From the human T2T-CHM13v2.0 reference genome, Homo sapiens: a stretch of 64,000 nucleotides of DNA. Numbering within the stretch: the first letter of the stretch is position 1; each line of letters starts with the position of its first letter. The DNA is taken from NCBI RefSeq assembly GCF_009914755.1, contig NC_060938.1; one strand, written 5' to 3'. Below are positions 17,690 to 61,800 of this stretch, piece after piece. A model generated the notes under the pieces. That model saw nothing but the letters and a program-made list of their open reading frames with translations. It was not told the origin of the DNA and searched no databases. The position numbers were made by a program, and so were the translations under genes.

Positions 17690-18505
17690 GCAACAAGTCA
17701 GTTCTATCTTCCTTTGCTATTATTATGTGAAATATATTGAAACAGATAATTATATTGAGTCTCATGCTGGAATCTGCATAATGTTCACAAAAATTTGCTG
17801 GTGCAGTCACCTCCAAGAGCTGAGGAACTGCTGCTGTTAATAAGTTGTTCAGTGCCAATGGACATTGACATGATTTGTTTGGTTGCCACTTTGTTCTGTC
17901 AAATAAGTCTGTGATTGGCTAACGTGACTGATGCATCCAAGGTCAGGGGCCTGCGATAGGACCTAGTGAGGGACATTGTGCATTTGTCTCCATTGATCTA
18001 TTCAGCAGGACTCGATAATACTCTGACACATGTAGACACTGGGTAAATAAAAAAATGTTCCTATTTCTTGAGAAATAGTTGGAGCTAATGGGTGGCATAA
18101 AATGCCAAGTTCTTCTAAACAAATCAAACTTTATATTTCTTTTATAAAATTTTGGTTTAGATAGAACAAATATCTAGATATACTTTGAGATAAAACATAC
18201 TTAAGTATGCAGATGCCAAAAGCTCAGTGGAACAATTTAACATGTTATAAAAGGAAGGTATATCATCTACCTTCAGAGTCATTGTCAATACTTTAATAAT
18301 AAAAAAACCTGTTTATGAAACAGCAATTTATTAAAGATGAAAATGATACAGTATATATCTTCCCAAACTTCAGGGAAATTAAATCAACTTATTTCTTTGA
18401 GGTGGACTGAGATGTATCATTTGATTTGGTTTTATGTATTATAAATTCAAGAGAGAATCTCTGATCCTAATGCTACTTAATAGGAATCTAATTATCTAAA
18501 AATAC

Positions 18506-18891
18506 TGAATAAAGAAAATGTGGCACATATACACTTTGGAATACTATGCAGCCATAAAAAAGAATGAGTTCATGTCCTTTGCAGGGACATGGATGAAGCT
18601 GGAAACCATCATTCTTAGCAAACTAACATAAGAACAGAAACCAAACACCACATATTCTCACTCATAAGTGGGAGTTTAACAATGAGAACACATGGACACA
18701 GGCAGGGGAACATCACACACCATGTCCTGTCGTGGGGGTGGGGGCCTAAGGGAGGGATAGCATTAGGAGAAATACCTAATGTAGATGACGGGTTGATAGG
18801 TGCAGCAAACCACCATGGCACCTGTATACCTATGTAACAAACCTGCACGTTCTGCACATGGATCCCAGAACTTAAAGTATAATTTTAAAAA
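18506..18891 (+). mobile_element. 5'-truncated L1PA (L1PA7-like) 3' end
   Basis: AAAGAAAATGTGGCACATATACAC...CCTAATGTAGATGACGGGTTG...CCCAGAACTTAAAGTATAAT. Confidence 0.95.
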
Positions 18892-18893
18892 CT

Positions 18894-19084
18894 GTATATA
18901 TATATGTGTGTGTATATATATATATATGTGTGTGTGTGTGTATATATATATATATGTGTATATATATGTGTATATATGTGTATATATATGTGTATATATG
19001 TGTATATATATGTGTGTATATATATACATATATACACACTAGAAAGAAACAAACATGTCCTACAAAAATAATACATATATGTGG

Positions 19085-19120
<36 letters not shown>

Positions 19121-19129
19121 GTATGTATG

Positions 19130-19160
<31 letters not shown>

Positions 19161-19214
19161 GTATATGTATATATACACTAGAAAGAAACAAAGAAACATG
19201 TCCTACAAAAATAA
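18894..19214. repeat. Compound (TA)n/(TG)n microsatellite with a duplicated unique spacer
   Basis: TA/TG arrays. CACTAGAAAGAAAC...ACATGTCCTACAAAAATAA occurs twice. Confidence 0.95.
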
Positions 19215-20722
19215 AAAGGTTAATTTAGTGCCAGAAGCAAACAATGTAGACTACCACTTCAGGACTCAAGGAATTTGCTAAATTTCCATTCCAATATTAG
19301 GCAAGAGTTTCTTGGAGATAAAAGCCGTGATTTCGTACGAGCTAGTGTCATGTCACACTATGTGTAAATCCACCAAGTTAATGTCATAATAAAGTTGTAC
19401 AACTTCAAAGGAATTACATAAATAAGCAACCTTACCAAGAAATGCACTTCCTTATACATTAGTCAAGATCAAGTCCTGTGGTTGGAAAAATCAGTTATTT
19501 TCTGTTATAAAAATTTGGGTTACATTTTTTAAAATCTTACCATTAGGAAATGTCTGAGTGGGCATGTCTGACTTGATGAGCATATATTAAACCATCATGA
19601 CTGCCTTGTATATGTTGTCTAGACTTGATTATAAATTCCAAAAAAAGCAGGAAAAGTGTATCATTGTAAGTTGAAATTCTAGGCCATTCTGCCAATATTT
19701 AAAGAAAATGAACCTTTTCTTAATTATAAAGTAAGCAAATGTCCCATTGGCATGTCTCATTTCACGTTCTTCATCTCCTCAGTACCTCTTTCTCCCCACC
19801 ACCATTGCATATTTTGATATAGGCAATGCCTAAGCAAGTTTTAGCTGTAGCCATATGTCTGCCTTATGTTTTAACGAGCCACTCTTACTACTGCAGAAAA
19901 CTAAAAGGAAAATAATAACTGAGTTTTTATATTTTGTCTTCTGCTAACTTTTATCGAAACTTCAATAAAGAGTTCATATAAAAATCTTTCTGTTGATAGC
20001 CAAGTAAGATGTGTAGTTTAGTTAACACTCTTTTATTATTTTTGATTTCCTGTTTTCAGTGATGTAAGATTTTATATTTACAGCATATTTATGTACATTA
20101 CATATATACATTACATATTATATTTTATATTTACTGGGTGTAAAGTATAGAGAGACATTTGATTCCACTTCTTGTACATCTTAAATTATTTCAAAATAAA
20201 AAATGAAACCGTCTATTGCACACGTAGCGTTGGGCATGTTCACATGATATTACATCATTTAATTAAATTAATTTTAAAAAGGTAATTATTTTCTTATTCA
20301 GACAAATTGGTTTTTGTGAGGGGTCACACTTGAATTTCTAAATATTCTCATCAATAAATAAATGAAAAATCTATGGACCTGTGTCCATTCTGACAACAAA
20401 AATAATTATACTCCAAAAAATATTATCAATCAATCAGAAAAATCAGGTAATGTATTTCCACTGTAAGTCACTTTATCCTGACCAAAATAGGACAGTTCTG
20501 TTCTAACCTGCAACTCATTCCTCTTGATTTCAACTCCTAAGATTTTTTCAGATTCATTAGTTTTCTTGACTTTTTCATAGTCTACTTACATCAGCTTTGC
20601 CTAGAGACTGCCTTTGAATTGTTATTTGTACTTTTTGTCTTTCCTCCCTTATAATCACTTCCTCTTTCATAGTAATTTTAGTTTTCACACTGTAAATTGC
20701 TAGAAAATAGGAATTGAGATTA

Positions 20723-23123: not shown

Positions 23124-25476
23124 TGATACGGTTTGGTTCTGTGTCCCCTTCTATAATTCCCGTGTATTGTGGGAGGGACCCGGTGCGAGATGATTGAGTC
23201 ATGGGAGCGGGTCTTTCCGATGCTGCTCTCGTGATACTGAATGGGTCTCATGAGATCTGATTGTGTTAAAAACGAAGTTTCTCTACACAAGCTCTCTCTT
23301 TGCCTGCTGCCATCCACATAAGATGTGACTTGCTCCTCCTTGCCTTCCACCATGATTGTGAGGCCTCCCCAGCCATGTGGAACTGTAAGTCCATTAAACC
23401 TCTTTCTTTTGTAAAATGCCCAGTCTCAGGTATGTCTTTATCAGCAGCATGAAAACGAACTAATACAGTAAACGGGTACCAGTACAGTGGGATGCTGCTG
23501 TAAAGATACCTGAAAATGTGGAAGCGACTTTGGAACTGGGTAACAGGCAGAGGCTGGAACCATTTGGAGGGCTTAGAAGAAGACAGGAAAATGTGGGAAA
23601 GTTTGAAAGTCCCTAGAGACTAGCTGAATGGCTTTGACAAAAATGACAGTGATATGAACAATAAGGTTCAGGCTGAGATGGTCTCAGATGAAGATGAGGA
23701 ACTTGTTGGGAACTGGAGCAAAGGTGAGTCTTGTTATATTTAAGCAAAGAGACTGGTGACATTTTGCTCCTGCCCTCAAGATTTGTGGAACTTTGAACAT
23801 GAGAGAGATAATTTAGGGTATCTGGCAGAAGAAATTTCTAAGCAGCAAAGCATTCTTGGATGACTTGGGTAATATTAAAGGCATTCAGTTTTATAAGGGA
23901 AACAGAGCATAAAAGTTTGGAAATTTTGCAGCCTGACAATGCAATAGAAGATAAAATCCCATTTTCTGAGGTGAAATTCAAGCCAGCTGCAGAAATTTGC
24001 ATAAGTAATGAGGCGCCAAATGTTAATCCCCAAGACAATGGGGAAAATGCCTCCAGGACATGTCAGAGGTCTTCATGACAGCCTCTCCAATCACAGGCTC
24101 AGAGCCCTAGGAGGAAAAAGTGGTTTCCTGTACTGGACCCAGGGTCCCTGTTCTCTGTGCAGCCTAGGAACTTGGTGCCTTGTGTCCCAGCTGCTCCAGC
24201 CATTGCTGAAAGGGGCCAACGAAGAGCTTGGGCTGTGACTTCAGAGGGTGGAAGCCTCAAGCCTTGGCAGCTTCCATGTGGTGTTGAGCCTGTGAGTGCA
24301 CAGAAGTTAAGAATTGAGGTTCGGGAACCTCTGCGTAGATTTCAGATGTATGAAAACGCCTGGATGCCCAGGCAGAAGTTTGCTGTAGGGGCGGGATCCT
24401 CATGGAAAACCGCTGCTAAGGCAGTGCAGAAGGGAAATGTGGGATGAGAGCCCCCACATAGAGTCTCTGCTGGGGCACCGCCTAGTGGAGCTGTGAGAAG
24501 AGGGCCACCATCCTTCAGACCCCAGAATAGTAGATCCACTGACAATTTGCACCCTGTGCCTGGAAAAGCCACAGACACTCAATGCCAGCCCATGAAAGCA
24601 GCCGGGAGGGAGGCTGTAACCTGCAAAGCCACAGGGGCTGAGCTGCCCAAGACCATGGGAACCCACCTCCTGCATCAGTGAGATCTGGATATGAGACATG
24701 GAGTCAAAGGAGATCATTTTGGAGCTTTAAGATTTGACTGCCCTGCTGGATTTTGGACTTGCATGGGACCTGTGGCCCCTTTGTTTTGGCCAATGTTTCC
24801 CATTTGGAATGGCAGTATTTACCCAATACCTGTACCCCCATTAAATTTAGGAATTAATTAGCTTGCTTTTGATTTTACAGGCTTGTAGACAGAAGGGACT
24901 TGCCTTGTCTCAGTTGAGACATTGGACTGTAAACTTTTGAGTTAATGCTGAAATGAGTTAAGGCTTTGGGGGACTGTTGGGAAGGCAAGATTGTTCTGAA
25001 ATGTAAAGATAAGAGATTTGGGAGGGGCCAGGGGCAGAATGATGTGACTGTTGGGAAGGCAAGATTGTTCTGAAATGTAAAGATAAGAGATTTGGGAGGG
25101 GCCGGGGCAGAATGATGTGGTTTGTCTCTGTGCCTCCACCCAAATCTCATCTTGTAGCTCACATAATTCTCATGTGTTGTGGGGGGGACCCAGTGGGACA
25201 TGATTGAATCATGGGGTGAATCCTTCCCGTGCTGCTCTCATGATAGTGAATGGGTCTCACAAGATATGATGGTGTTAAAAACGGAATTTCTCTGCACAAG
25301 CTGTCTTTTTGCCTGCTACCATCCATGTAGGATGTGACTTGCTCCTCCTTGCCTTCTGCCGTGATTGTGAGGGCTCCCTAGCCAGGTGGAACTGTAAGCC
25401 CAATAAACCTCTTTCTTTTGTAAATTGCCCAGTCTCAGGTAGGTCTTTATCAGCAGTGTGAAAACAGACTAATACA
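23124..25476 (+). mobile_element. Complete THE1A-type provirus: LTR 23124-23467, internal, LTR 25113-25476
   Basis: TG...CA LTRs with THE1A-type AAACCTCTTTCTTTTGTAAAWTGCCCAG. Perfect 5-bp TSD CCATC at 23119-23123 and 25477-25481. Confidence 0.96.
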
Positions 25477-33930: not shown

Positions 33931-34149
33931 AAAATCACTTAGTGTCCTTTCCCATTTCCCTAAGTTACTTTTCAAAATACTATTCATTCTTCTCAAGCTG
34001 CTGACCCCACCTCTTTCTACCATGTTTTATTCCACTCTATACAGTCTCTATTTTGTTTCAATTTCCTATTCATTTTGTATTTCTCAGTTATCTTTAAACT
34101 TCTCACTTTTCTGTTATCGCTACTTGACATATATGATCCCTTTAAGACC

Positions 34150-34410
34150 CATCCATTCCTCGTATCCATCTTGAAAATTCCTACTAACCTTTAAGGAACA
34201 ACTTGAATTTAATTTCTTCTCTGTTACCCTTCCTAACCCTGGATCCAGGCAGAGTTAGAGCAACTGGCTCATCGCTTCATTCTAGTGTATATCATGTTGC
34301 ATTTAGTTATCTGTCTGTCTAGTTAAATATATATCCAGCAACAATTTAGTGATTTTTTCATATGAGAAGCTGAACAAGCACTGGCTGAGTGAAAGTTGAG
34401 TATTAATTTA
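34150..34410 (+). mobile_element. L2 3' fragment
   Basis: AAATTCCTACTAACCTTTAAG...CCTTCCTAACCC...CAGGCAGAGTTAG. Confidence 0.5.
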
Positions 34411-35684
34411 ATGAATACTTTTTTTTGTTACAAAAATCCTGCAATATTTAATTTTTGTTAAATATCTAGAAATTATGACATGAATATTAAATACTTATTC
34501 TGAATTTCTTGCGATTCTGCAGATTGAAAAAAACTGCTGTTATGTTTAAAATAAGTCAACAGCTGATTACTAACAACTGTAGAATATCTTGAAGCTAACC
34601 TTTCCTTAAAAAGAAAGATACTTATCCGTAATTTTTGCCCACTGTGGAAACTATAGATTTTTGTGTGCAAAGGCATTTATTTTTCATGGAAAAAATAACT
34701 TCATTTAACATGGTTAAAAAACAAAATCAAAGCTAGAATTTGTATTTACAGTTATTGCCTCAAACCTTAATCAAAAGCAACAGAGTTTTTTGTTTTGTAA
34801 TTTTAAGGCGAAAGTGTATGGCAAATCAAATAAATGTTTGATCATTCCATTTGCTTACACTGAATACATGAGGCCCTTCGATGTTTAGTACATAAGCGAA
34901 CAGATTTGCCAATCATGGAAGCAAAGGGGTCGGATAAAAGCTAAAGCATCAAATAGAATCTTAAATTTACTTTTAAAATATATATTACCTTAAAGAATCC
35001 AGATTCATAAAAAATACACATGGTGCCTTTCTTATTCTTTTCCAAAATCATATTCAGCTATGTAATATATTGTTAACAAACAGGCTAGTTTTATTTCCAG
35101 ACTAACACCCAAAATAAGATTCACCTGTGGCCTTTTAAAAATGCATATCTGAGTGAGTGCTTCACCTGAAACCTACCTGATCAGACTTTTTTGTTTTCAA
35201 AGTTTGGCACACAATGCCCTAGAGGTTCCCCATCACCAATGGCAAACATTGGCAAATGGCTTCTTTAACATTTGATAATCACAATTGACCTTTGATATGG
35301 AGGTTTATCACCGTGTTTTATTTGAGGCTAATGTTATCCATGAATCTCCAGTTACAGAACCTTTACTTTGTTAAAATTATCACAAAAAAGCCTGAGTATC
35401 AAAGAAGAAGTTTGAACAGCCGTCTCGAGGTCAAGGAAATAACATTAATTATGAAAGTACCTAACAGTATTTGGGCTCATACTAAAAGTCACATTTACAT
35501 ACTCCAATAACCTGATTATTAGCTAGTAGTATCTCAATTTTTAAGATGAAGAAATGATGCAAGGTGACTGATGTCATATAGCTATTAAGACCCTGTGCTG
35601 GGATTTGATCCCGAAGATTTGAACTCCAGAATCTACACTGGTCACCATCAATTGTCATGTATTAAATCCAGCCCCAGGGAGATA

Positions 35685-36070
35685 ATATTAGTTGGGGATA
35701 TATGATGATTTTATTTTTCTCTTCAGCTTGATATTGACTCTGTTTTTGGTTCTTCTTATTATTTGTGTACCTATGGAGGTGATAACAATGATAATAAATT
35801 CACCCTGATGTTACAGATACTTAAGGAGAAAATAAAAAGACCTTTATACTAGATCATTCAGTTAATTTTGTTTATAACAGAGATGGTTACCTACAGAGGG
35901 AAAGAGGAAGCCCTGTATATATGTATAAAAGGAAATAGGTGGTAAAAACTTCCAAGTCTGAGAGAGTGGTCAGAAATCTCTCCTATCGCTTTTGTTATTA
36001 TGCTATTTAATGTATGTGTTTCTTTACTTGTGGGTTGAAAAGGAATTGCGTGGATGAAATTTTTGAGCTT
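35685..36070 (+). repeat. Outer inverted repeat, left arm (A); partner 38525-38910
   Basis: Reverse complement of 38525-38910 aligns end to end, with about 44 differences in ~386 bp by manual count. Confidence 0.95.
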
Positions 36071-36300
36071 CTCATGGGTATACTAGATGTAGTGGTCTTT
36101 TTTCTCTTGGATACTATAAAGAGAAGGATAAAATGATAGCAAATGTGCACAAAATCAGTCACTAGCTCCATTGAAATGCAATTGATTCTGTTTTCATAAG
36201 AGATGTCACTATTTTAGCAGTCCTTCTTATGCTTATAAATGCACAGAATAATTTCTAAACAATACAACTTAAATATTTTCACACAAAATTGGAACATTTT
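36069..36300 (+). repeat. Inner inverted repeat, left arm (B); partner 37588-37820
   Basis: Reverse complement of 37588-37820 aligns with about 12 differences in ~232 bp. Confidence 0.97.
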
Positions 36301-37587
36301 CTTTTTTCCTCTGTTGATTAAACATCCAGTCAGAAGCAAGTGCTGATCTATAAAGGTAAGAAACCTCATCTGCAGTAGAGGAACAGACACGCTGAATAGA
36401 TTATGTGATTCTTCACAAAACGCCCCATGCTGCCTACATCACAGTCAGAAATCTTTCATTTTGGTTTTATATAAATATTCTAAATGGCCAGTACTTGATT
36501 TTTTTTAAGGAGCCCAATTATTCTTGAATAACAGCTGTGCAAGCTGTGAAGTAAGTAAATTAATCTTTTGAGCTTTTGGTAAAAGTGTAAGATCTTACAG
36601 TCAGCACGGAATATATACGGTTTTGTTCGTTGCTATAACATCCATGTGCTCTGGTCCATTTTAAGCAATGTTAAAAATGTGGTTATATTCCAAATTGGCT
36701 TTATGTCTTTTTCCCTTCAGCATCCATGTAAAATGAGCCCCTTATTTAGTGGAAATCTTCTTGTAGTCTGTGCTTTAGCTCAAGAAAAATAAAGAGCTTA
36801 TCTATCATTGGAAGTTGGGGTATTGAGGGTAGATGAAAGGCCAGCTGGCTCCAATTTTACCATATGCATCATTAAAATATTTGCTAGCTACAGAAACTTT
36901 TCCAGCAATCCTCTACTACTGGTTCACATACTGATCTGATATGTTAAAGCCGTTCATGGCTGGAGCTGCCAAAGCCCTCCACAGACATATGCAATGTACA
37001 CCAAGGATTACATCACCCGCCACTGAAGGGCAGCCACCTCCCTGATGAGACACAGACAACTGTGCATTTAATGGGGCATAGCAAGTATGTGCGATAGGTA
37101 TGATTTTCAGTCTGAGAGCTCAGGAAAGGAACTCAAGTTTAGAATAAATGTAAGCAATAGAATGAAATTGTTAGGATGCTTGAAGAAATAGTTTGATATA
37201 CTTTTTTTGGTAGTGGTGATTCTTGGATCATAAAAGTTACAAATTTTACCAAAGTGAGGTTTAATTAGTTAAAAAATTAAAAAATAATCATGCCAACTTT
37301 CATATAAGAATAAATGCAGGGAGTACAGAGACAGTGAGGGGGAAGAAAGGAGGCTGGAAATTTTATCTCATACATTAATTTCAGCACACACTTGATATCA
37401 TTCTCACACAGTATAGTAAATTTTCCTGACATCACGGTGAGTCACAGACAAGAACTGTCCAGATAATCTATTGGAAAGCTGAAAATGTGTTTAGGTAGGA
37501 AACATAATAACTTTTGTTTAGTAATCATGAATAGCTGTTTTTTGGAGTTATTTTTCCACCTTATTAATGAATGACCTCAGTTCACAT

Positions 37588-37820
37588 AAAATGTTCCAAT
37601 TTTATGTGAAAATATTTAAGTTGTATTGTTTAGAAATTATTCTATGCATTTATAAGCATAAGAAGAACTGCTAAAATAGTGACATCTCTTATGAAAACAG
37701 AATCAATTGTATTTTCAATGGAGCTAGTGACTGATTTTGTGAACATTTGCTATCATTTTATCCTTCTCTTTATAGTATCCCAGAGAAAAAAGGCCACTAT
37801 GTCTAGTATACCCACGAAAA
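37588..37820 (-). repeat. Inner inverted repeat, right arm
   Basis: AAAATGTTCCAATTTTATGTGAAAATATTTAAG...CTAGTATACCCACGAAAA = reverse complement of 36069-36300. Confidence 0.97.
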
Positions 37821-37898
37821 TAATGAACTCCCAGCTCTACTGAGGTATAATTAACAAAAATTGTGTATGTTTATGGTGTTAAATGTGATGCTTTGTTA

Positions 37899-38985
37899 TA
37901 TAGACCAAAAATAAAGTTAAGAGTTCTCCCCTCCCCAACCATCTGAATGGACTCCCTCCTCTAGGCCAGGGCACTCCAAAGTTAACCTGAAAAACTGATT
38001 CAGACCATGATGGGAAGCAAGGGGTGAGACATGCCTCATTATTCCCTCCTCCCTTTTGGAATACAGAAAAAGCCGACCACGTTTAACATCAACACAGACC
38101 GTAAGTCTGGTAAGGAACATTTATAATCCATCCTCTCTGAAGGCTGCTATCTGGTGGCTTCATCTACATGATAAAAGTTTGTTTCCCACAACCTGTTATT
38201 GCAACCCAGACACTCCTTTCTATTGATAATAACTCTTTCAACCAATTGCGAATCAGAACATTTTTAAATCTACCTGTAACCTGGAAGCCCCTTCTTCAAG
38301 TTGTCCTACCTTTCTGGACTGAAGCACTGCATATCTTAAATGTATTTGACTGATGTCTTATGTCTCCCTAAAATATGTAAAACCAAGCTGTGCCTCAACT
38401 ACCTTGGGCACGTACTCTCAGGGTCTCCTGAAAGCTGTGTAACAGGCCTCGATCACTCATAATTGGCTCAGAATAAATCTCTTCAAATATTTCAAAGAAT
38501 TTTTAAAAATACTAAAATATTTTAAAGCTCAAAAATTCCATCCACTCAATTCCTTTTCAACCTACAAGTAAAGAAACACATCCATTAAATAGCATAACAA
38601 CAAAATTTATAGGAGAGATTTCTGACTGCTGTATCAGACTTGGAAATTTTCACCACCTATTTACTTTTATATATATATACAGAGCTTCCCTTTTACCTCT
38701 GTTATTAACCATCTCTGCTATAAACATAATTAACTGGATGATCTAGCATAAAGATCTTTCTATTTTCTCCTTAAGTATCTGTATCATCAGGGTGAATTTA
38801 TTGTCATTGTTATTACCTCTGTAGACACACAAATAATAATAAGAACAAAAAGCAGAGTCAATATCAAGCTAAAGAGAAAAGAAAAATCATCATATATCCA
38901 CAACTAATATGAGAATTTTTAAAATATTTGAAGACATTTATTCTGAGCCAAATAGGAGTGACTATGGCCCATGGTATATATGACA
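37899..38985 (+). mobile_element. MER4(B)-type LTR with a ~480-bp foreign insertion near its 3' end
   Basis: TATAGACCAAAAATAAAG...CCAACCATCTGAATGGAC...GGCTCAGAATAAATCTCTTCAAATATTT (to ~38503). Probable terminal TGACA at 38981-38985. Flanks GTTA/GATA. Confidence 0.88.
38525..38910 (-). repeat. Outer inverted repeat, right arm (A'), inside MER4
   Basis: AAGCTCAAAAATTCCATCCACTCAATTCC...CATCATATATCCACAACTAATAT = reverse complement of 35685-36070. Confidence 0.95.
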
Positions 38986-39558
38986 GATATATGTATATAT
39001 TGTGAAATGATTAACACGATCAAACTAATTACCATATCAATCAGCACACACAGTTATGACTTTTTAGTATGTGTGATGAGAACATTGAAGCTACACTCTC
39101 TTACCAATTTTCAAGTGTGTAATACAGTATATTATTAACTATAGTCACCAGGCTGAACAGTAGATCTCTAGCATGTATTCATCCTATCAAACTGAAACTT
39201 TGTACCTTTTGATGAACATCTCCTCATTCCACAACTTACCCCACAAGCCCCGGGCTACCACCATTCTACTCTCTGCTTCTGTGAGTTTTTCAGATTCCAC
39301 AAACTGATGAGATTGTGCAGTGCTTTTCTTCTTTGACCTGGCTTACTTTATTTCACTTTGCATAGTATCTTCCAGGTTCACCTGTGTTGTCACACATGAC
39401 AGGATTTCCTTGTTTTTAAAGGCTGAATAGTATTTCATTGTGTGTATATACCCATTTTCTTTATCCATTCATCTATCCATGTTAATTCCATACCTTGGCT
39501 ATTGTGAATAATGCTGCAAAAAACATGGGTGTGCAGACGTCTCTTTGACACACTCTTC

Positions 39559-39929
39559 TGTGGTGAGCAGCTATATGCAAACATACTTCCAAAGGTCAAG
39601 GGAACTGAGAGGCCAAATAAAGAGTGTAACAAGTACAGTTTCTCAGAAAGAAACATTTAATAGGGACTTAGGAACAGAAGCCATATCTTGGGTGGCCATG
39701 AGACAGTAGACCCCTCATCTCTCCCTCCAGAAAATATCCTTTATAAGTTTTTTTGGTAAAGCATGCACCATGTCAGACTTTCTTGCATAATGTGTGACCT
39801 CTGAGGAGGTTAGATAAGCATTTTCATGAGGTGCTATCTATGGTACAGGCACTTTTTTGCAGAGTTTATTTTTTAGAGGTTATCTGTGCTGTGGACATTG
39901 TTTAAAGACCTTGCTGCAGTATGCAGGAA
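39559..39929 (-). mobile_element. LTR47-like LTR fragment
   Basis: TGTGGTGAGCAGCTATATGCAAAC...CTGAGAGGCCAAA...AGAAAGAAACATTTAATAGGGACTTA. Family name from memory. Confidence 0.55.
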
Positions 39930-41967
39930 TGAAATGGTTTGACTTTGTGCCCCCACCCAAATCTCATCTCAAATTGTAATCCTTACATGTCGAGGGAGGG
40001 ACCTGGTGGGAAGTGATTGGATCATGGAAGCGGTTTCCCCTATGTTGTTATCACGATAGTGAGGGAGTTCTCATGACATCTACTGATTTTAAAAGTGGCA
40101 GTTTCCTCTGAACACACTCTCTCTCTCTCTCTGCTGCCACCTTGTGAAGGAGGTGTCTGCTTCTCCATTACCTTCCACCATGATTAGAAGTTTCCTGAGG
40201 CCTTCCTGACCATGCGGACCTGTGAGTCAGCTAAGCCTCTTTTGTTTATAAATTACTCAGTCTCAGATAGTATCTTTTTAGCAGTGTAACAACTAATACA
40301 GAAAATTGGTACCAGGAGTAAGGCACTGCTCTAAAGATAACCTGAAAATGTGGAATTGACTTTGGAACTAGGTAACAGGCAGAGGTTGGAACAGTTTGGA
40401 GGGCTCACAAGAAGACAGAACGATGTGGGAAAGTTTAGAACTTCCTAGAGACTTGTTGGATGGTGTTGACCAAAATGTTGGTAGTGATATGGACAGTGAA
40501 ATCCAGGCTGAGGAGGTCTCAGATGGAGATGAGGAACTTACTGGGAACTGGAGTAAGGGTCATTCGTGCTGTGCTTTAGCAAAGAGACTGGCAGTATTTT
40601 GCTCCAGCCCTGGAGATCTGTGGAACTTTGAACTTGAGAGAGATGATTTAGGGTATCCAGTTTAAAAAATTTCTAAGCAGCAAAGCATTCAAGAGGTGAC
40701 ATAGCTTATAATGAAAATGTTCAGTTATATGAGTTCATAGAGATTGTTTGAAATTGGATCTTATATTTAACAAGGAAGCAAAGAATATATGCTTGGAAAA
40801 TTTACAACCTGACCATGAGGTAGAAAAGGAAAACTCATTTTCTGAGGAGGAATTCAAGCTGACTGCAGAAATTTGCATAAGTAACAAGGAGCTAAATGTT
40901 AATATCCAAGACAATGCACAAAACTTCTCCAGAGCATGTCAGAGACCTTCACAGCAGCCTCTCCCATCACAAGCCTGGAGGACTAGGAGGGAAAAATGTC
41001 TTCCTGGGCCAGGCCCAGGGTGCTGCTCCTCTGTGCAGCTTCAGGACTTGGTGTTCTGTGTCCCAGCCACTCCAACTCCAGCTGTAGCTAAAAGGGGCCA
41101 AGATACAGCTCAGGCCATTGGTTCAGAGGCAAGGAAACCAAGCCTTGGTTTCCATGTGGTGTTGGGCCTGCAGGTACAGAGAAGACAAGAGTTGAGGCTT
41201 GGGAACGTCTGCTTAGATTTCAGAAGATGTATGGAAATGCCAGGCAGATATCTGCTGCAGGGGCAGCGTCCTCTTGGAAAACCTCTGCTAGGGTAGTGCA
41301 GAAGGAAAATGTGGGGTTGGAGCCCCCATACAGACTCCCCACTGGGGCACTGCCTAGTGGATCTATGAGAAGAGGGCCACCGTCCTCTAGATCCCAGAAT
41401 GATAGATCTGCCAACAGTTTGTGCAGTGCACCGGGAAAAGCAGCAGGCATTCAATGCCAATCTGTGAAAGCAGCCACAGGGGCTGTACCCTGCAGAGCCA
41501 TAGGGGCAGATCTGCCCAATGTCGTGGGGGCCCACCCCTTGCATCAACACGCCCTGCATGTGAGGCATGGAGTCTAAGAGATTACTTTGGATCTTTGAGA
41601 TTTAATGAATGCCCTGTCAGGTTTCAAACTTGCATGGGGTGCTTGGCCCCTTTGTTTTAGCCAATTTCTCCCTTTGGGAATTGGAACATTTATCAAATGC
41701 CTGTACACTTACTGTATCTTGCAAGTAACTAACTTGTTTTTTGGTTTTGCAGGCTCACAGTGGAAAAGGGCTTGCCTTATCTCAGATAAGACTTTGGACT
41801 TGGACTTTTGAGTTAATGCTGGAATAAGTTAAGACTTTGGAGGACTGTAGAAAAGGAATGATTGGTTTTGAAATGTGAAAAGGACATGAGATTTGGGAGG
41901 AGATAGGGACTGAATTATACAGTTTGGCTCTTTGTCCCCCCACAAACCTCATCTCAAATTGTAATAC
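39930..41967 (+). mobile_element. THE1D/MSTA provirus: LTR 39930-40300, internal 40301-41914, 3' LTR truncated after ~53 bp
   Basis: LTR, full MaLR internal region and PPT, then an abrupt switch to L1 ORF2. Confidence 0.93.
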
Positions 41968-56192: not shown

Positions 56193-57170
56193 ACAATTAT
56201 GGAGGCTGGAAAGTCCAAGGTCGAGGCCCTGGCAGGTGAGGGCCTGGTCTCTCTGTTTCCAAGATGGTGCCATGTTGCTGAACTTTTTAGGAGGTGGGAA
56301 AGCTGTGTCCTCACATGTGGAAGGCAGAGGGGCAAGAGAACCAAAAGCTGCCTGAAGAAGCCTTTCCTATAAGGACCTGAATCTCACTAATGCAGGGGCA
56401 GACATCATGGCCTAATCACCTCTTAAATGCCCCACTTCTTCTTTTTTTTTTTTTTTAATTATACTTTAAGTTCTAGGGTACATGTGCACAACGTGCAGTT
56501 TTGTTACATGTGTATACATATGCCATGTTGGTGTGCTGCACCCAGTAACTCGTCATTTACGTTAGGTATATCTCTTAATGCTCTCCCTCCCTGCTTCCCC
56601 CACCCCACAACAGGCCCCGGTGTGTGATGTTCTGCTTCCTGTGTCCAAGTGTTCTCATTGTTCAATTCCCACCTATGAGTGAGAACATGTGGTGTTTGTT
56701 TTTTTGTTCTTGCGATAGTTTGCTGAGAATGATGGTTTCCAGCTTCATCCGTGTCCCTACAAAGGACATGAACTCATCATTTTTTATGGCTGCCTAGTAT
56801 TCCATGGTGTATATGTGCCACATTTTCTTAATCCAGTCTATCATTGATGGACATTTGGGTTGATTCCAAGTCTTTGCTATTGTGAATATTGCTGCAATAA
56901 ACATACTTGTGCATGTGCCTTTATAGCAGCATGATTTATAATCCCTTGGGTATATACCCAGTAATGGGATAGCTGGGTCAAATGGTATTTCTAGTTCTAG
57001 ATCCTTGAGGAATTGCCACACTGTCTTCCACAATGGTTGAACTAGTTTACAGTCCCACCAACAGTGTAAAAGTGTTCCTATTTCTCCACATCCTCCACTT
57101 CTTAATACTATCACATTGGCCATTAAGTTTCAATGCCTGAATTTTGGAGGGGATATATTCAAACTATAGA
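56193..57170 (-). mobile_element. MST(B/C)-type LTR, partial, split by L1PA
   Basis: GGAGGCTGGAAAGTCCAAGG...TTCCAAGATGGTGCC...CCTAATCACCTCTTAAA, resuming AATACTATCACATTGGCCATTAAGTTTCAA. Confidence 0.85.
56441..57094 (-). mobile_element. 5'-truncated L1PA4/5 3' end
   Basis: T tail, ATACTTTAAGTTCTAGGGTACATGTGCACAACGTGCAG. Perfect 9-bp TSD CCACTTCTT at 56432-56440 and 57095-57103. Confidence 0.96.
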
Positions 57171-57685: not shown

Positions 57686-57959
57686 TGTAGAAAAGCAAAA
57701 CTAGGTGCAGTGAGTCTATCCCAACAGAGTACTTGGCCAAACTGTTTACACCTGCCAGGGCAGTAGCTGATAGAAGCTTTAGATCTCCAGATTCACTTAC
57801 TTCTGTTTTTTCCAATAAGTCATATGTGAGGTCATATGCCCCTTTCAGCTTTTCCTCCACCTCATGGACTGCTGGAAATATTCCTGGCTTTGACATTACT
57901 AAAAAATCCTGCTGGTTGGAGAGAGAGAGAGATATATATATATATATATATATATCTCT

Positions 57960-57992
<33 letters not shown>

Positions 57993-58268
57993 GTATATAT
58001 ATATAAGAGATATATATATATCTCATATATATGTATATATATATAAGATATATATATTTTTTAGATATATATATTTTAGATATATATATATTTAGATATA
58101 TATTTTAGATATATATATATTTAGATATATATATTTATATGTATATCCTCTATAATATATGTCTGTCTGTCATCTATCATCTATCTATATATATTTTTAT
58201 ATATATAATATTAATATGTATATCCTCTATAATATATCTGTCTGTCATCTATCTATCATCTATCTATC

Positions 58269-58315
<47 letters not shown>

Positions 58316-58877: not shown

Positions 58878-61800
58878 TAGGTATACATGTGCCATGGTGG
58901 TTTGCTGCACCCATCAACCCATACTCTAGATTTTAAGCCCTGCATGCATTAGGTGTTTGTCCTAATACTATCCCACCCCTTGCCCCCAACCCCTGACAGG
59001 CTCCGGTGTGTGATATTCCCCTCCCTGTGTCCATGTGTTCTCATTGCTCAACTCCCACTTATGAGTGAGAACATGCAATGTTTGTGTTAGTTTGCTGAGA
59101 ATGATGGTTTCCAGCTTCATCCATGTTCCTGCAAAGGACATGAACTCCTCCTTTTTTATGGCTGCATAGTATTCCATGGTGTACATGTGCCACATTTTCT
59201 TTACCCAGTCTATCACTGATGGGCATTTGGGTTGGTTCCAAGTCTTTGCTATTGTGAACAGTGCCACAATAAACATGCATGTGCATGTGTCTTTATAGTA
59301 GAATGATTTATAATCCTTTGGGTATATACCCAGTAATGGGATTGCTAGGTCAAATGGTATTTCTAGTTCTAGATCCTTGAGGAATTGCCGCACAGTCTTC
59401 CACAATGGTTGAACTAATTTACACTCCCACCAACAATGTAAAAGTGTTCCTATTTCTCTACATCCTCTCCAGCATCTGTTGTTTCCTGACTTTTTAATGG
59501 TTGCCATTCTAACTGGCATGAGATGGTATCTCATTGTGGTTTTGATTTGTATTTCTCTAATAACCAGTGATGAGCTTTTTTCATGTTTTTGTTGGCTGCA
59601 TGCATGTCTTCTTTTGAGAAGCATCTGTTCATATCCTTTGCCCACTTTTTGATGGGGTTGTTTGTTTTTTTCCCGTAAATTTGTTTAAGCTCCTTGTAGA
59701 TTTTGGATATTATCCTTTTGTCAGATGGATAGATTGCAAAAATTTTCTCACATTCTGTAGGTCGCCTTTTCAAACTGATGATAGTTTCTTTTGCTGTGCA
59801 GAAGCTCTTTAGTTTAATTAGATCCCATTTGTCAATTTTGGCTTTTGTTGCAATTGCTTTTAGTGTTTTAGTCCTGAAGTCTTTGCTCATGCCTATGTCC
59901 TGAATGGCATTGCCTAGGTTTTCTTCTAGAGTTTTTATAGTTTTAGGTTTTACATTTAAGTCTTTAATCTATCTTGAGTTAATTTTTGTATAAGGTGTAA
60001 GGAAAGGATCTCCAGTTTCAGTTTTCTGATATGGCTAGCCAGTTTTCACAGCACCATGTATTAAATTGTTTTTGTCAAGTGTGTCAAAGATCAGATGGTT
60101 GTAGATGTGTGGTGTTATTTCTGAGGCATCTGTTCAGTTCCATTGGTCTATATCTCTGTTTTGGTACCAGTACCATGCTGTTTTGGTTACTGTAGCCTTG
60201 TAGTATAGTTTGAAGTCAGGTAGCGTGATGCCTCCATCTTTTTTTTTTTTTCCCTTAGGATTGTCTTTGATATATGGGCTCTTTTTCAGTTCCATATGAA
60301 ATTTAAAGTAGTTTTTTCTAATTCTGTGAAGAAAGTCGATGGTAGCTTGATGGGAATAGCAGTGAGTCTATAAATTACTTTGGGCAGTATGGCCATTTTC
60401 ATGATATTGATTCTTCCTATCCATGAGCTTGGAATGTTTTTTCCATTTGTTTGTGTCCTCTCTTATATCCTTGAGCAGTGATTTATAGTTCTTGAAGAGG
60501 TCCTTCACAAGTTGTATTCCTACGTATTTTATTCTCTTTGTAGCAATTGTGAATGCGACTTCACTCATGATTCAGCTCTCTCTTTGCCTATTATGGGTGT
60601 ATAGGAATGCTTGTGATATTTGCACATTGATTTTGTATCCTGAGACTTTGCTGAAGTTGCTTATCAGCTTAAGGAGTTTTGGGGCTGAGACTATGGGGTT
60701 TTCTAAATATACAATCATGTCATGTGCAAACAGAGACAATTTCACTTCCTCTCTTTCTATTTGAATACCTTTTATTTCTTTCTCTTGCCTGATCTCCCTG
60801 GCCAGAACTTCCAATACTATGTTGAACAGGAGTGGTGAGAGAGGGCATCCTTGTCTTGTGCCAGTTTTCAAAATGAATGCTTCCAGCTTTTGCCCATTCA
60901 GTATGATATTGGCTGTGATTTTGTCATAAATAGCTTTTATTATTTTGAGATATGTTCCATCAATACCTAGTTTATTGAGAGTTTTTAGCATGAAGGGGTG
61001 TTGAATTTTATTGAAGGCCTTTTCTGCATCTAGTGAGATAATCATGTGGTTTTTGTCATTGTTTCTGTTTATGTGAAGGATTGCATTTATTGATTTGTGT
61101 ATATTGGACCAGCTTTGCATCCCAGGATGAAGCCGACTTGATCATAGTTGATAAGCTTTTTGATGTACTGCTGGATTCAGTTTGCCAGTATTTTACTGAG
61201 GATTTTTGCATCAATGTTCATCAAGGATATTTACCTGAAGTTTTCTTTTTTGTTGTGTCACTCTCAGGTTTTGGAATCAGGATGATGCTGGTCTCATAAA
61301 ATGAGTTAGGGAGGAGTCCCACTTTTGCTACTCTTTGAAATAGTTTCAGAATGAATGCCAGCAGCTCCTCTTTGTACCTCTGGTAGAATTTGGCTGTGAA
61401 TCCATCTGGTCCTGGACTTTTTTTGGTTGGTAGGCTGTTAATTACTGCCTCAATTTCAGAACTTGTTATTGATCTATTCAGGGATTTGACTTCTTCCTGA
61501 TTTAGTATTGGGAGGGTTTATGTGTCCAGGAATTTATTCATTTCTTCTTGATTTTCTAGTTTATTTGCGTAGAGGTGTTTATAGTATTCTCTGGTGGTAG
61601 TTTGTATTTCTGTGGGGTCAGTTGTGATATTCCCTTTATTATTTTTTATTGTGTCTATTTGATTCTTCTCTCTTTTCTTCTTTATTAGTCTCAGTAGTGG
61701 TCTTTCTATTATGTTAAGCTTTTCAATAAACCAGCTCCTAGATTCATTGATTTTTTGAAGGGTTTTCCACGTCTCTATCTCCTTCAGTTCTGCTCTGGTC

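What the first reader, a model, noticed from the sequence alone, without database searches (positions are those of the whole stretch)
35685..38985. Nested two-age inverted duplication of unique sequence (A-B-spacer-B'-L1/MER4-A')
Seen: a contiguous 616-bp non-TE block (A 35685-36070 plus B 36069-36300) recurs inverted downstream in two pieces, B' 37588-37820 and A' 38525-38910. These are separated by ~700 bp (L1MA tip plus MER4 LTR). A/A' are ~88-89% identical and B/B' ~95% (manual counts), yet the A/B boundary on the left matches the ends of both right-hand copies. The 700 bp cannot simply have inserted into one long arm, because it is the tip of an L1MA whose body continues after A'. Inference: two events. 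First, A was copied into the MER4. Later, a second inverted copy was made starting at the inner edge of A, perhaps primed by A/A' pairing, or B/B' has been homogenised by gene conversion. The result is a self-extending fold-back locus that could form a large stem-loop in ssDNA or RNA.
Basis: partly seen in the sequence, partly recalled or inferred. Interest (0 to 1): 0.8.

Follow-up and report, generated by a model that had tools for sequence, protein, structure and literature searches.

The report
Split inverted duplication in a gene desert
A 616-base stretch of unique human DNA was copied backwards in two consecutive pieces into two nearby spots inside old transposon remnants, most likely by a DNA-copying accident, and nothing suggests it has a function.

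Summary
A (35685-36070) and A' (38525-38910) differ at 43 of 386 sites with no gaps. B (36069-36300) and B' (37588-37820) differ at 11 of 232 sites plus one indel. In the 3.1-Gb assembly A+B matches only itself, A' and B', so the arms are not a dispersed repeat. The 704 bp between B' and A' holds the 3' tip of an old antisense L1 and a ~600-bp LTR that split that L1. The L1 resumes at 38986.

X' (38914-38970) is a snap-back copy of the LTR's own 3' part, X (38445-38501).

The two "ages" differ (Fisher p=0.0076). However, the best-fitting step lies about 40 bp inside B, not at the A/B boundary. The first 40 bp of B are as diverged as A (6 of 40).

My best reading (about 50%) is one complex fold-back and template-switch event, followed by gene conversion of the inner ~190 bp. 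Two separate events (about 30%) remain possible. I found no RNA family, no ORF over 76 aa and no annotated gene. It is a real, tidy fossil of a known mutational class and of modest interest. Primate orthologues would settle the one-event versus two-event question.

The parts
35685..36070 (+). A: outer left arm and donor. Unique sequence, contiguous with unique flank P on its left.
   Evidence: 386 nt, 43 mismatches, no gaps against A'. (single copy in the genome).
36069..36300 (+). B: inner left arm and donor, contiguous with A. Positions 36069-36070 are shared by both alignments.
   Evidence: 232 nt, 11 mismatches and 1 indel against B'. (mismatches at 36071-36108 are dense; 36109-36300 has 5 in 192).
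36301..37587 (.). S: single-copy spacer (1,287 bp), the loop of the inner palindrome.
   Evidence: one genome candidate, itself. (no ORF over 76 aa in the region).
37588..37820 (-). B': inverted copy of B. It sits at the 3' end of the L1, where the L1 poly(A) tail is missing.
   Evidence: (2 of 7 other L1 copies, L017 and L022, show a clear T run at this point and a third, L024, a short T-rich stretch; the window shows none).
37821..37831 (.). 11 nt at the B'/L1 junction that I could not assign to any source.
37832..37898 (-). 3' tip of an old L1, antisense on the + strand, cut off from its body by the LTR.
   Evidence: 7 of 11 other L1 loci align here..
37899..38502 (+). Solo LTR of a dispersed family. 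It is complete at its 5' end and lacks roughly its last 12-15 nt. AATAAA lies at 38472-38477.
   Evidence: 4,519 first-look candidates; the 39 other scored copies are 78-83% identical. (6 of 7 full-length copies continue past the point where the window copy stops).
38445..38501 (+). X: the 3' part of the LTR that was copied as a snap-back.
   Evidence: alignment score 39; 0 of 1000 shuffles reach it.
38503..38524 (.). 22-nt AT-rich filler between the LTR break and A'.
38525..38910 (-). A': inverted copy of A, inserted into the LTR's 3' end.
38914..38970 (-). X': inverted copy of X. It starts at the same LTR position where X breaks off.
   Evidence: (pair I4).
38971..38985 (.). TA-rich junction. 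It may hold the last few bases of the LTR, but this is unresolved.
38986..39554 (-). Body of the same L1, continuing from the tip with a 4-7 nt overlap (the LTR's target-site duplication).
   Evidence: 7,638 first-look candidates. (11 of 11 loci align. In 5 of the 7 loci that match both pieces, tip and body abut with a 4-7 nt overlap. In the other 2 the body alignment runs about 15 nt further left through TA-rich sequence).

Best explanation
This is a neutral structural fossil made by error-prone DNA copying, not a functional element.

The ancestral locus read P-A-B-S-[L1 tip]-[LTR]-[L1 body]. A growing DNA strand, during repair of a collapsed fork or a break, folded back several times. These were serial template switches of the MMBIR/FoSTeS kind. 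Each one is a '3-2-1-4' event in the four-point model.

1. At the L1 poly(A) site the strand copied B backwards, giving B'.
2. It returned and copied the L1 tip and the LTR.
3. About 24 nt after the LTR's AATAAA it folded back again and copied A backwards, giving A'.
4. It then snapped back on the LTR sequence it had just made, giving X'.
5. It rejoined the LTR end and the L1 body.

The second fold-back resumed exactly where the first had stopped. By then B was locked in a B/B' hairpin, so the first free template base was the inner edge of A.

Later, arm-to-arm gene conversion across the 1.3-kb spacer homogenised the inner ~190 bp of B/B'.

What is shown: the anatomy, the uniqueness of the arms, the relative order (L1, then LTR, then duplication) and the divergence pattern. 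What is inferred: every mechanistic step, and that all copies arose in one event.
For: A+B, S and P are single copy, so the arms are local copies. The left side is contiguous and the right side is split, so the left side is the donor. L1 tip and body abut in other L1 copies, and the LTR is a full-length member of a dispersed family. Both therefore predate the copies. X' is a copy of the adjacent LTR, it starts where X ends (0 of 1000 shuffles), and it is about as diverged as A/A'. This points to fold-back synthesis at a break. B' and A' cover consecutive donor bases with a 2-nt overlap. The divergence step fits best at 36109, not at the A/B boundary (8.05 against 4.10 log-likelihood units; permutation p=0.002 for any step). 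The first 40 nt of B show 6 mismatches against 5 in the other 192 (Fisher p=0.004). One of these is a TG/CA difference at 36088-36089 that looks like a CpG lost independently in each arm. Published parallels: template switches that create inverted repeats (PMC5453318, passages read); fold-back inverted insertions at breaks, and insertions of two sequences from one locus in inverted orientation (PMC11724301, abstract only); fold-back duplication with a single-copy spacer (PMC3907307, abstract only).
Against: No outgroup sequence was available, so I cannot show that B', A' and X' arose together. The within-B heterogeneity is marginal once the scan over cut points is allowed for (permutation p=0.063). 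It could instead reflect error-prone synthesis near a switch point. The overall A-versus-B difference (p=0.0076) is what two events would predict directly. Gene conversion is known mainly from much larger and more similar arms. No clear microhomology is visible at the junctions in today's sequence. The hairpin-base idea is my own inference and has no direct test here.
Confidence: 0.5

Rival explanations
1. Two separate events. A' and X' were inserted into the LTR first. Millions of years later a second template switch at the L1 poly(A) site copied B backwards. That copy stopped at the inner edge of A because A was held in an A/A' hairpin stem on the template.
For: B/B' as a whole is less diverged than A/A' (11/232 against 43/386, p=0.0076). 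Inverted repeats are known to provoke further template switching (established knowledge; PMC11794170 and PMC11293582 listings and passages). The shared boundary is explained by a stem that blocks synthesis. The mismatch cluster at the outer end of B' could be switch-associated copying errors.
Against: It needs two rare events at one locus. The first 40 nt of B are as diverged as A (6/40). The TG/CA difference at 36088-36089 needs a change in each arm or a double error. The best-fitting step is 3.95 log-likelihood units better at 36109 than at the boundary.
Confidence: 0.3
2. Capture of loose DNA pieces. Two adjacent single-stranded fragments from the lagging strand over A and B (for example neighbouring unligated Okazaki fragments or flaps) were captured by end joining at two breaks 700 bp apart. 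The A/B boundary would then be the nick between the fragments.
For: The pieces are consecutive, in the same orientation, and 232 and 386 nt long. Insertion of displaced fragments at breaks, including two pieces from one locus, is reported in yeast (PMC11724301, abstract only).
Against: It needs two simultaneous breaks plus two fragments, and the excised L1-tip/LTR piece must be rejoined in its original place and orientation. It does not by itself explain X'. The 2-nt overlap is not expected from a nick, though it could be chance.
Confidence: 0.1
3. RNA-mediated or L1-mediated insertion of A'. A transcript ending at the LTR's polyadenylation site was involved, and A' was inserted by target-primed reverse transcription.
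For: The LTR break lies about 24 nt after AATAAA (38472-38477). A 13-nt direct repeat (AGAATTTTTAAAA) containing a TTTT/AAAA motif flanks A'.
Against: A' has no poly(A) or poly(T) tract at either end. The direct repeat is marginal (32 of 1000 shuffles reach it) and lies in AT-rich, self-complementary sequence near the X/X' centre. A has no splice or promoter feature that was tested.
Confidence: 0.03
4. The arms are terminal inverted repeats of a DNA transposon or copies of an unrecognised old repeat family. Alternatively, the palindrome is an assembly artefact.
For: The arms are inverted and about 600 bp long. Very old families (below about 70% identity) would escape the genome search used.
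Against: A+B gave only 3 genome matches, against thousands of candidates for the neighbouring TEs with the same tool. The flanks show no convincing target-site duplication (only GAGA is shared). Arms at 89-95% identity, interrupted by old TEs, are not what a fold-back assembly chimera looks like; that would be about 100% identical.
Confidence: 0.03

Closest known systems
Template-switch mutations under the four-point model, type 3-2-1-4 (Loytynoja and Goldman 2017, PMC5453318, passages read)
   Same: [quoted passage not shown] Each of B', A' and X' fits the 3-2-1-4 order of switch points.
   Different: Published events are short-range, and the authors expressly do not model successive rounds. 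Here the copied pieces are 57, 232 and 386 nt, they lie up to 2.4 kb from their insertion sites, and at least three rounds are needed.
MMBIR/FoSTeS complex rearrangements with iterative template switches (PMC8421209 and PMC11293582, listings and abstract starts only)
   Same: Serial switches, inverted templated insertions, small deletions at the return points and filler bases.
   Different: Known human cases are mostly large, recent, pathogenic or somatic copy-number changes. This one is under 1 kb of added sequence, fixed in the assembly and old. I did not find the alternation between two templates, each resumed where it was left, described in the papers I read.
Fold-back inverted duplication with a single-copy spacer (Hermetz et al. 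2014, PMC3907307, abstract only)
   Same: B-S-B' is an inverted duplication around a single-copy spacer, as expected from intrastrand fold-back at a break.
   Different: Those cases are megabase-scale, with terminal deletions or dicentric intermediates. Here the arm is split in two by 704 bp of older sequence.
Fold-back inverted insertions at double-strand breaks in yeast (Yu et al. 2024, PMC11724301, abstract only)
   Same: X/X' is a near spacer-less snap-back next to a break. The abstract also reports insertions of two sequences from one locus in inverted orientation.
   Different: The yeast fold-backs are mostly 5-34 bp, and X' is 57 nt. The organism and setting also differ, since those are experimentally induced breaks.
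Sex-chromosome palindromes maintained by arm-to-arm gene conversion (PMC8981503 and PMC3723533, abstract starts only)
   Same: Inverted arms around a spacer. The proposed homogenisation of the inner arm is the same process.
   Different: Those palindromes have very large arms (>10 kb in one listing) with more than 99% identity, and some carry genes. Here the arms are 0.6 kb, 89-97% identical, autosomal and in a gene desert.

Membership tests
   A+B gave 2 first-look candidates and 3 matches (itself, A', B'). Positive controls with the same tool gave 4,519 (LTR) and 7,638 (L1) candidates. Families below about 70% identity would be missed.
DNA transposon with long terminal inverted repeats | Target-site duplication directly outside both arms, and other copies in the genome | tested here: not met
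   Outside the arms, the 6 nt on each side share only GAGA (GAGATA against GAGAAT). There are no other copies. The right arm is interrupted by older TEs.
Four-point template-switch mutation (3-2-1-4) | The inserted fragment is the reverse complement of nearby sequence | tested here: met
   for B', A' and X'.
Four-point template-switch mutation (3-2-1-4) | A single short-range switch-and-return | tested here: not met
   The fragments are 57-386 nt, the distances reach 2.4 kb, and three copied pieces sit at two sites. The paper says it does not model long-range switches or successive rounds (PMC5453318, passages read).
Fold-back inverted duplication | The inverted copy is joined to the original through a single-copy spacer | tested here: met
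   B-S-B', with S single copy.
Fold-back inverted duplication | One continuous inverted arm | tested here: not met
   B' and A' are separated by 704 bp of older L1 and LTR.
Gene-converting palindrome | Arms kept more similar than their age predicts, shown by arms clustering within species | not testable with these tools
   No primate orthologues are held. The only evidence is indirect: 5/192 mismatches in inner B against 49/424 elsewhere.
L1-mediated retro-insertion (target-primed reverse transcription) | A poly(A) tail and a flanking target-site duplication | tested here: not met
   No A or T tract at either end of A'. The 13-nt direct repeat is marginal (32 of 1000 shuffles).
Structured RNA gene or miRNA-type hairpin locus | A match to a curated RNA family | tested here: not met
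   one hit only, SNORD60 at 22.1 bits against a gathering score of 42, E=0.81.

The most novel reading that the evidence does not exclude
Palindromes may grow stepwise because a hairpin stem sets the boundary of the next inverted copy. Once one inverted pair exists, even if made seconds earlier on the same nascent strand, its stem hides that template. The next fold-back copy then starts or stops exactly at the stem base, even when it is inserted hundreds of bases away. This locus, with consecutive donor pieces at two separated sites and a 2-nt shared boundary, would be a fixed germline record of that rule. It would also offer a route to nested arms with graded identity.
Probability: 0.3. Interest if true: 0.55.

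Novelty: new member of a known kind. Interest (0 to 1): 0.3.

Why it matters
The locus is a clean, datable natural example of multi-step fold-back and template-switch mutation in unique human sequence. The older L1 and LTR act as built-in markers that fix the order of events. If primate orthologues show one event, it documents an unusual alternation between two templates, each resumed where it was left. If they show two events, it documents an existing inverted repeat shaping the next one. Either way it bears on how palindromes and hairpin-forming loci arise. It has no visible bearing on gene function, since no gene is annotated in the window according to the hub's annotation.

Tried and rejected
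1. A second local palindrome around B' (the end of S against the L1 tip). The alignment scored 16 and 17 of 1000 shuffles reached it. Identity was only ~71%, which does not fit the ~89% of X/X'. The end of S gave no better BLAST hits to 11 L1 loci than the control segments did. I rejected it as probable chance.

2. A target-site duplication around A'. The 13-nt direct repeat is marginal (32 of 1000 shuffles) and lies in self-complementary AT-rich sequence. I did not rely on it.

3. The flanks of the A+B block, compared directly and inverted, showed nothing (462 and 1000 of 1000 shuffles).

4. Further arm homology beyond the four pairs: none in 34000-41000 (0 direct families and 4 inverted pairs).

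5. The L1's own target-site duplication, which could have shown whether B or B' is the original flank. The element is too old (70-78% identity to the other scored copies) and I saw no candidate by eye.

6. Rfam gave only a sub-threshold SNORD60 hit.

7. ORFs: 11 stop-to-stop frames of 63-76 aa, none longer. I did not search them against protein families.

9. I could not obtain primate orthologues or a TE library (Dfam) with these tools, so the names 'MER4' and 'L1MA' and the dating by species remain untested.

10. I built no consensus of the LTR. Ages rest on pairwise identities only.
Full report
**Observation**

Gapped alignment gives these values:
- A (35685-36070) against A' (38525-38910): 386 aligned positions, 43 mismatches (27 transitions, 16 transversions), no gaps, 88.9% identity, K2P 0.122.
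- B (36069-36300) against B' (37588-37820): 232 positions, 11 mismatches, one 1-nt indel, 95.3% identity, K2P 0.049.

The two right-hand copies cover consecutive donor bases and share two of them (36069-36070). No further direct or inverted homology of 40 nt or more occurs in 34000-41000, apart from one extra 44-nt inverted pair flanking A' (pair I4).

**Uniqueness**

The window's own 3.1-Gb assembly could be searched. A+B (616 nt) gave 2 first-look candidates and 3 matches: itself, A' and B'. The spacer S (36301-37587) and 1,085 nt of left flank each gave one candidate, themselves.

The same tool gave 4,519 candidates for 37900-38530 and 7,638 for 38975-39600, so it does detect dispersed families. 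One caveat is that families below roughly 70% identity would escape this search.

An assembly fold-back artefact is unlikely, because the arms are 5-11% diverged and interrupted by old TEs.

**Anatomy of the right side**

The interval 37899-38502 is a full-length member of a ~600-bp LTR family. Eleven other copies were fetched and 7 full-length ones were aligned. The window copy begins at the family's normal 5' end. It stops about 12-15 nt short of the 3' end that 6 of the 7 other copies share.

The L1 lies antisense on the + strand. Its 3' tip is 37832-37898, which aligns to 7 of 11 other L1 loci. Its body resumes at 38986, which aligns to 11 of 11. Of the 7 loci that match both pieces:
- in 5, tip and body map to adjacent positions overlapping by 4-7 nt, as expected for the LTR's target-site duplication;
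- in 2, the body alignment runs about 15 nt further left through TA-rich sequence.

So the order of events was L1 first, then the LTR, then the duplication.

Left of the L1 tip the window has no T run. In the alignment of 7 other copies, L017 and L022 show a clear T run there and L024 a short T-rich stretch; the other 4 do not. If the window's L1 once had a tail, B' sits where it was lost.

The alignment scored 39, and 0 of 1000 shuffles reached it. X' is an inverted copy of the LTR's own 3' part. It begins at the same LTR position where X breaks off, about 24 nt after the LTR's AATAAA (38472-38477).

The right-hand layout is therefore: S | B' | 11 nt | L1 tip | LTR...X | 22-nt filler | A' | 3 nt | X' | ~15 nt | L1 body.

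**Ages**

A/A' and B/B' differ in divergence (43/386 against 11/232, Fisher p=0.0076). However, a change-point scan along the 616 donor positions puts the best step before 36109:
- 49/424 mismatches to the left and 5/192 to the right;
- a log-likelihood gain of 8.05, against 4.10 at the A/B boundary;
- permutation p=0.002 for the existence of any step.

The first 40 nt of B carry 6 mismatches against 5 in the remaining 192 (Fisher p=0.004). When only B is permuted and the cut point is free, p=0.063. The mismatch between the step and the structural boundary is therefore suggestive, not proven.

One of the outer-B differences (36088-36089, TG against CA) looks like independent decay of one CpG in each arm, which fits an old age for that part. 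X/X' is about as diverged as A/A' (alignment).

The other 39 scored LTR copies are 78-83% identical to the window copy, roughly twice the arm divergence. This fits an LTR that predates the copies.

Using recalled primate substitution rates of about 1-2 x 10^-9 per site per year (not from a tool), A/A' would be some 30-60 million years old. The last homogenisation of inner B would be about 6-13 million years ago.

**Mechanism**

A 3' end paired through A/A' and extended into B would lay B' directly beside A', not 704 bp away beyond the LTR and L1 tip.

Simple alternatives also fail or need several precise steps. These include one continuous arm later split, inversion with staggered breaks, or exchange between inverted and non-inverted states.

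What fits is serial fold-back copying, in which two templates alternate and each is resumed where it was left:
1. S, then the reverse of B.
2. The L1 tip and LTR, then the reverse of A.
3. The reverse of the LTR's end, then the L1 body.

A hairpin explains the shared A/B boundary in either order of events:
- **One event.** B is already locked in a B/B' stem, so the next fold-back begins at the first free base, the inner edge of A.
- **Two events.** An older A/A' stem stops the later copy of B at that same edge.

I prefer one event followed by arm-to-arm conversion of the inner ~190 bp (about 50%). This rests on parsimony, on outer B being as old as A, and on X' being of similar age. Two events remain quite possible (about 30%). 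Capture of two adjacent loose fragments at two breaks (about 10%) and an RNA- or L1-mediated origin (about 3%) are less likely. All mechanistic steps are inference.

**Comparison with known processes**

[quoted passage not shown] That model was built for short-range events, and its authors state they do not model long-range switches or successive rounds (PMC5453318, passages read).

Other relevant reports:
- Fold-back inverted insertions next to breaks, and insertions of two sequences from one locus in inverted orientation, in yeast (PMC11724301, abstract).
- Fold-back duplication around a single-copy spacer in patients, at far larger scale (PMC3907307, abstract).
- Inverted pairs of at least 200 bp and at least 80% identity are very common in T2T-CHM13, with 627,791 reported. 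The abstract singles out Alu-Alu pairs among the smaller, less identical repeats (PMC11794170, passages). A local inverted duplication of unique sequence is a different kind of pair, though not new in kind.

In my four literature searches I found no description of consecutive donor pieces placed at two separated sites. I did not search exhaustively and make no claim that this is absent from print.

**Function**

Nothing points to a function:
- The hub's annotation shows no gene in the window.
- Rfam gives only a sub-threshold hit.
- No stop-to-stop frame exceeds 76 aa.

As RNA, 35685-38972 folds at -1299 kcal/mol against about -700 for three shuffles. In that fold, 355 of 386 A positions pair with A' and 221 of 232 B positions pair with B'. 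The large stem-loop is therefore possible in principle, but this follows trivially from the repeat and says nothing about whether it forms in cells.

**Limits**

I had no primate orthologues, no TE library, no population data and no expression data.

Noticed in passing
38472-38502: The LTR is broken about 24 nt downstream of its AATAAA hexamer, roughly where a transcript from the LTR would be cleaved and polyadenylated. X' starts at the same LTR position. This may be coincidence or a hint of a fragile or RNA-linked site.
   Followed up: partly
36088-36089 with 37800-37801, and the LTR CpG position in X (about 38441-38444) with X' (about 38971-38974): There are two places where the arms differ as TG against CA. 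This pattern is expected if a CpG present at the time of duplication decayed independently in each copy.
   Followed up: no
23648-24603 and 40483-41475 (direct, 76-82%); both inverted to 1649-2810: Three copies of one dispersed element lie in the window (families D9, D13 and D14 and pairs I2-I7 and I10). The RefSeq 'enhancer' at 23822-24323 overlaps one of them (D9, 23890-24189).
   Followed up: no
18867-19222 and 57922-58285: Long TA/TG-rich and TATC-type microsatellite tracts (families D1, D3 and D4).
   Followed up: no
56710-57009 and 59082-59381 (direct, 91%); 18504-18640 inverted to both (90-92%): Relatively young repeat copies near the 3' end of the window. They are probably members of a recent L1 or similar family and lie within the blocks NCBI masks.
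   Followed up: no
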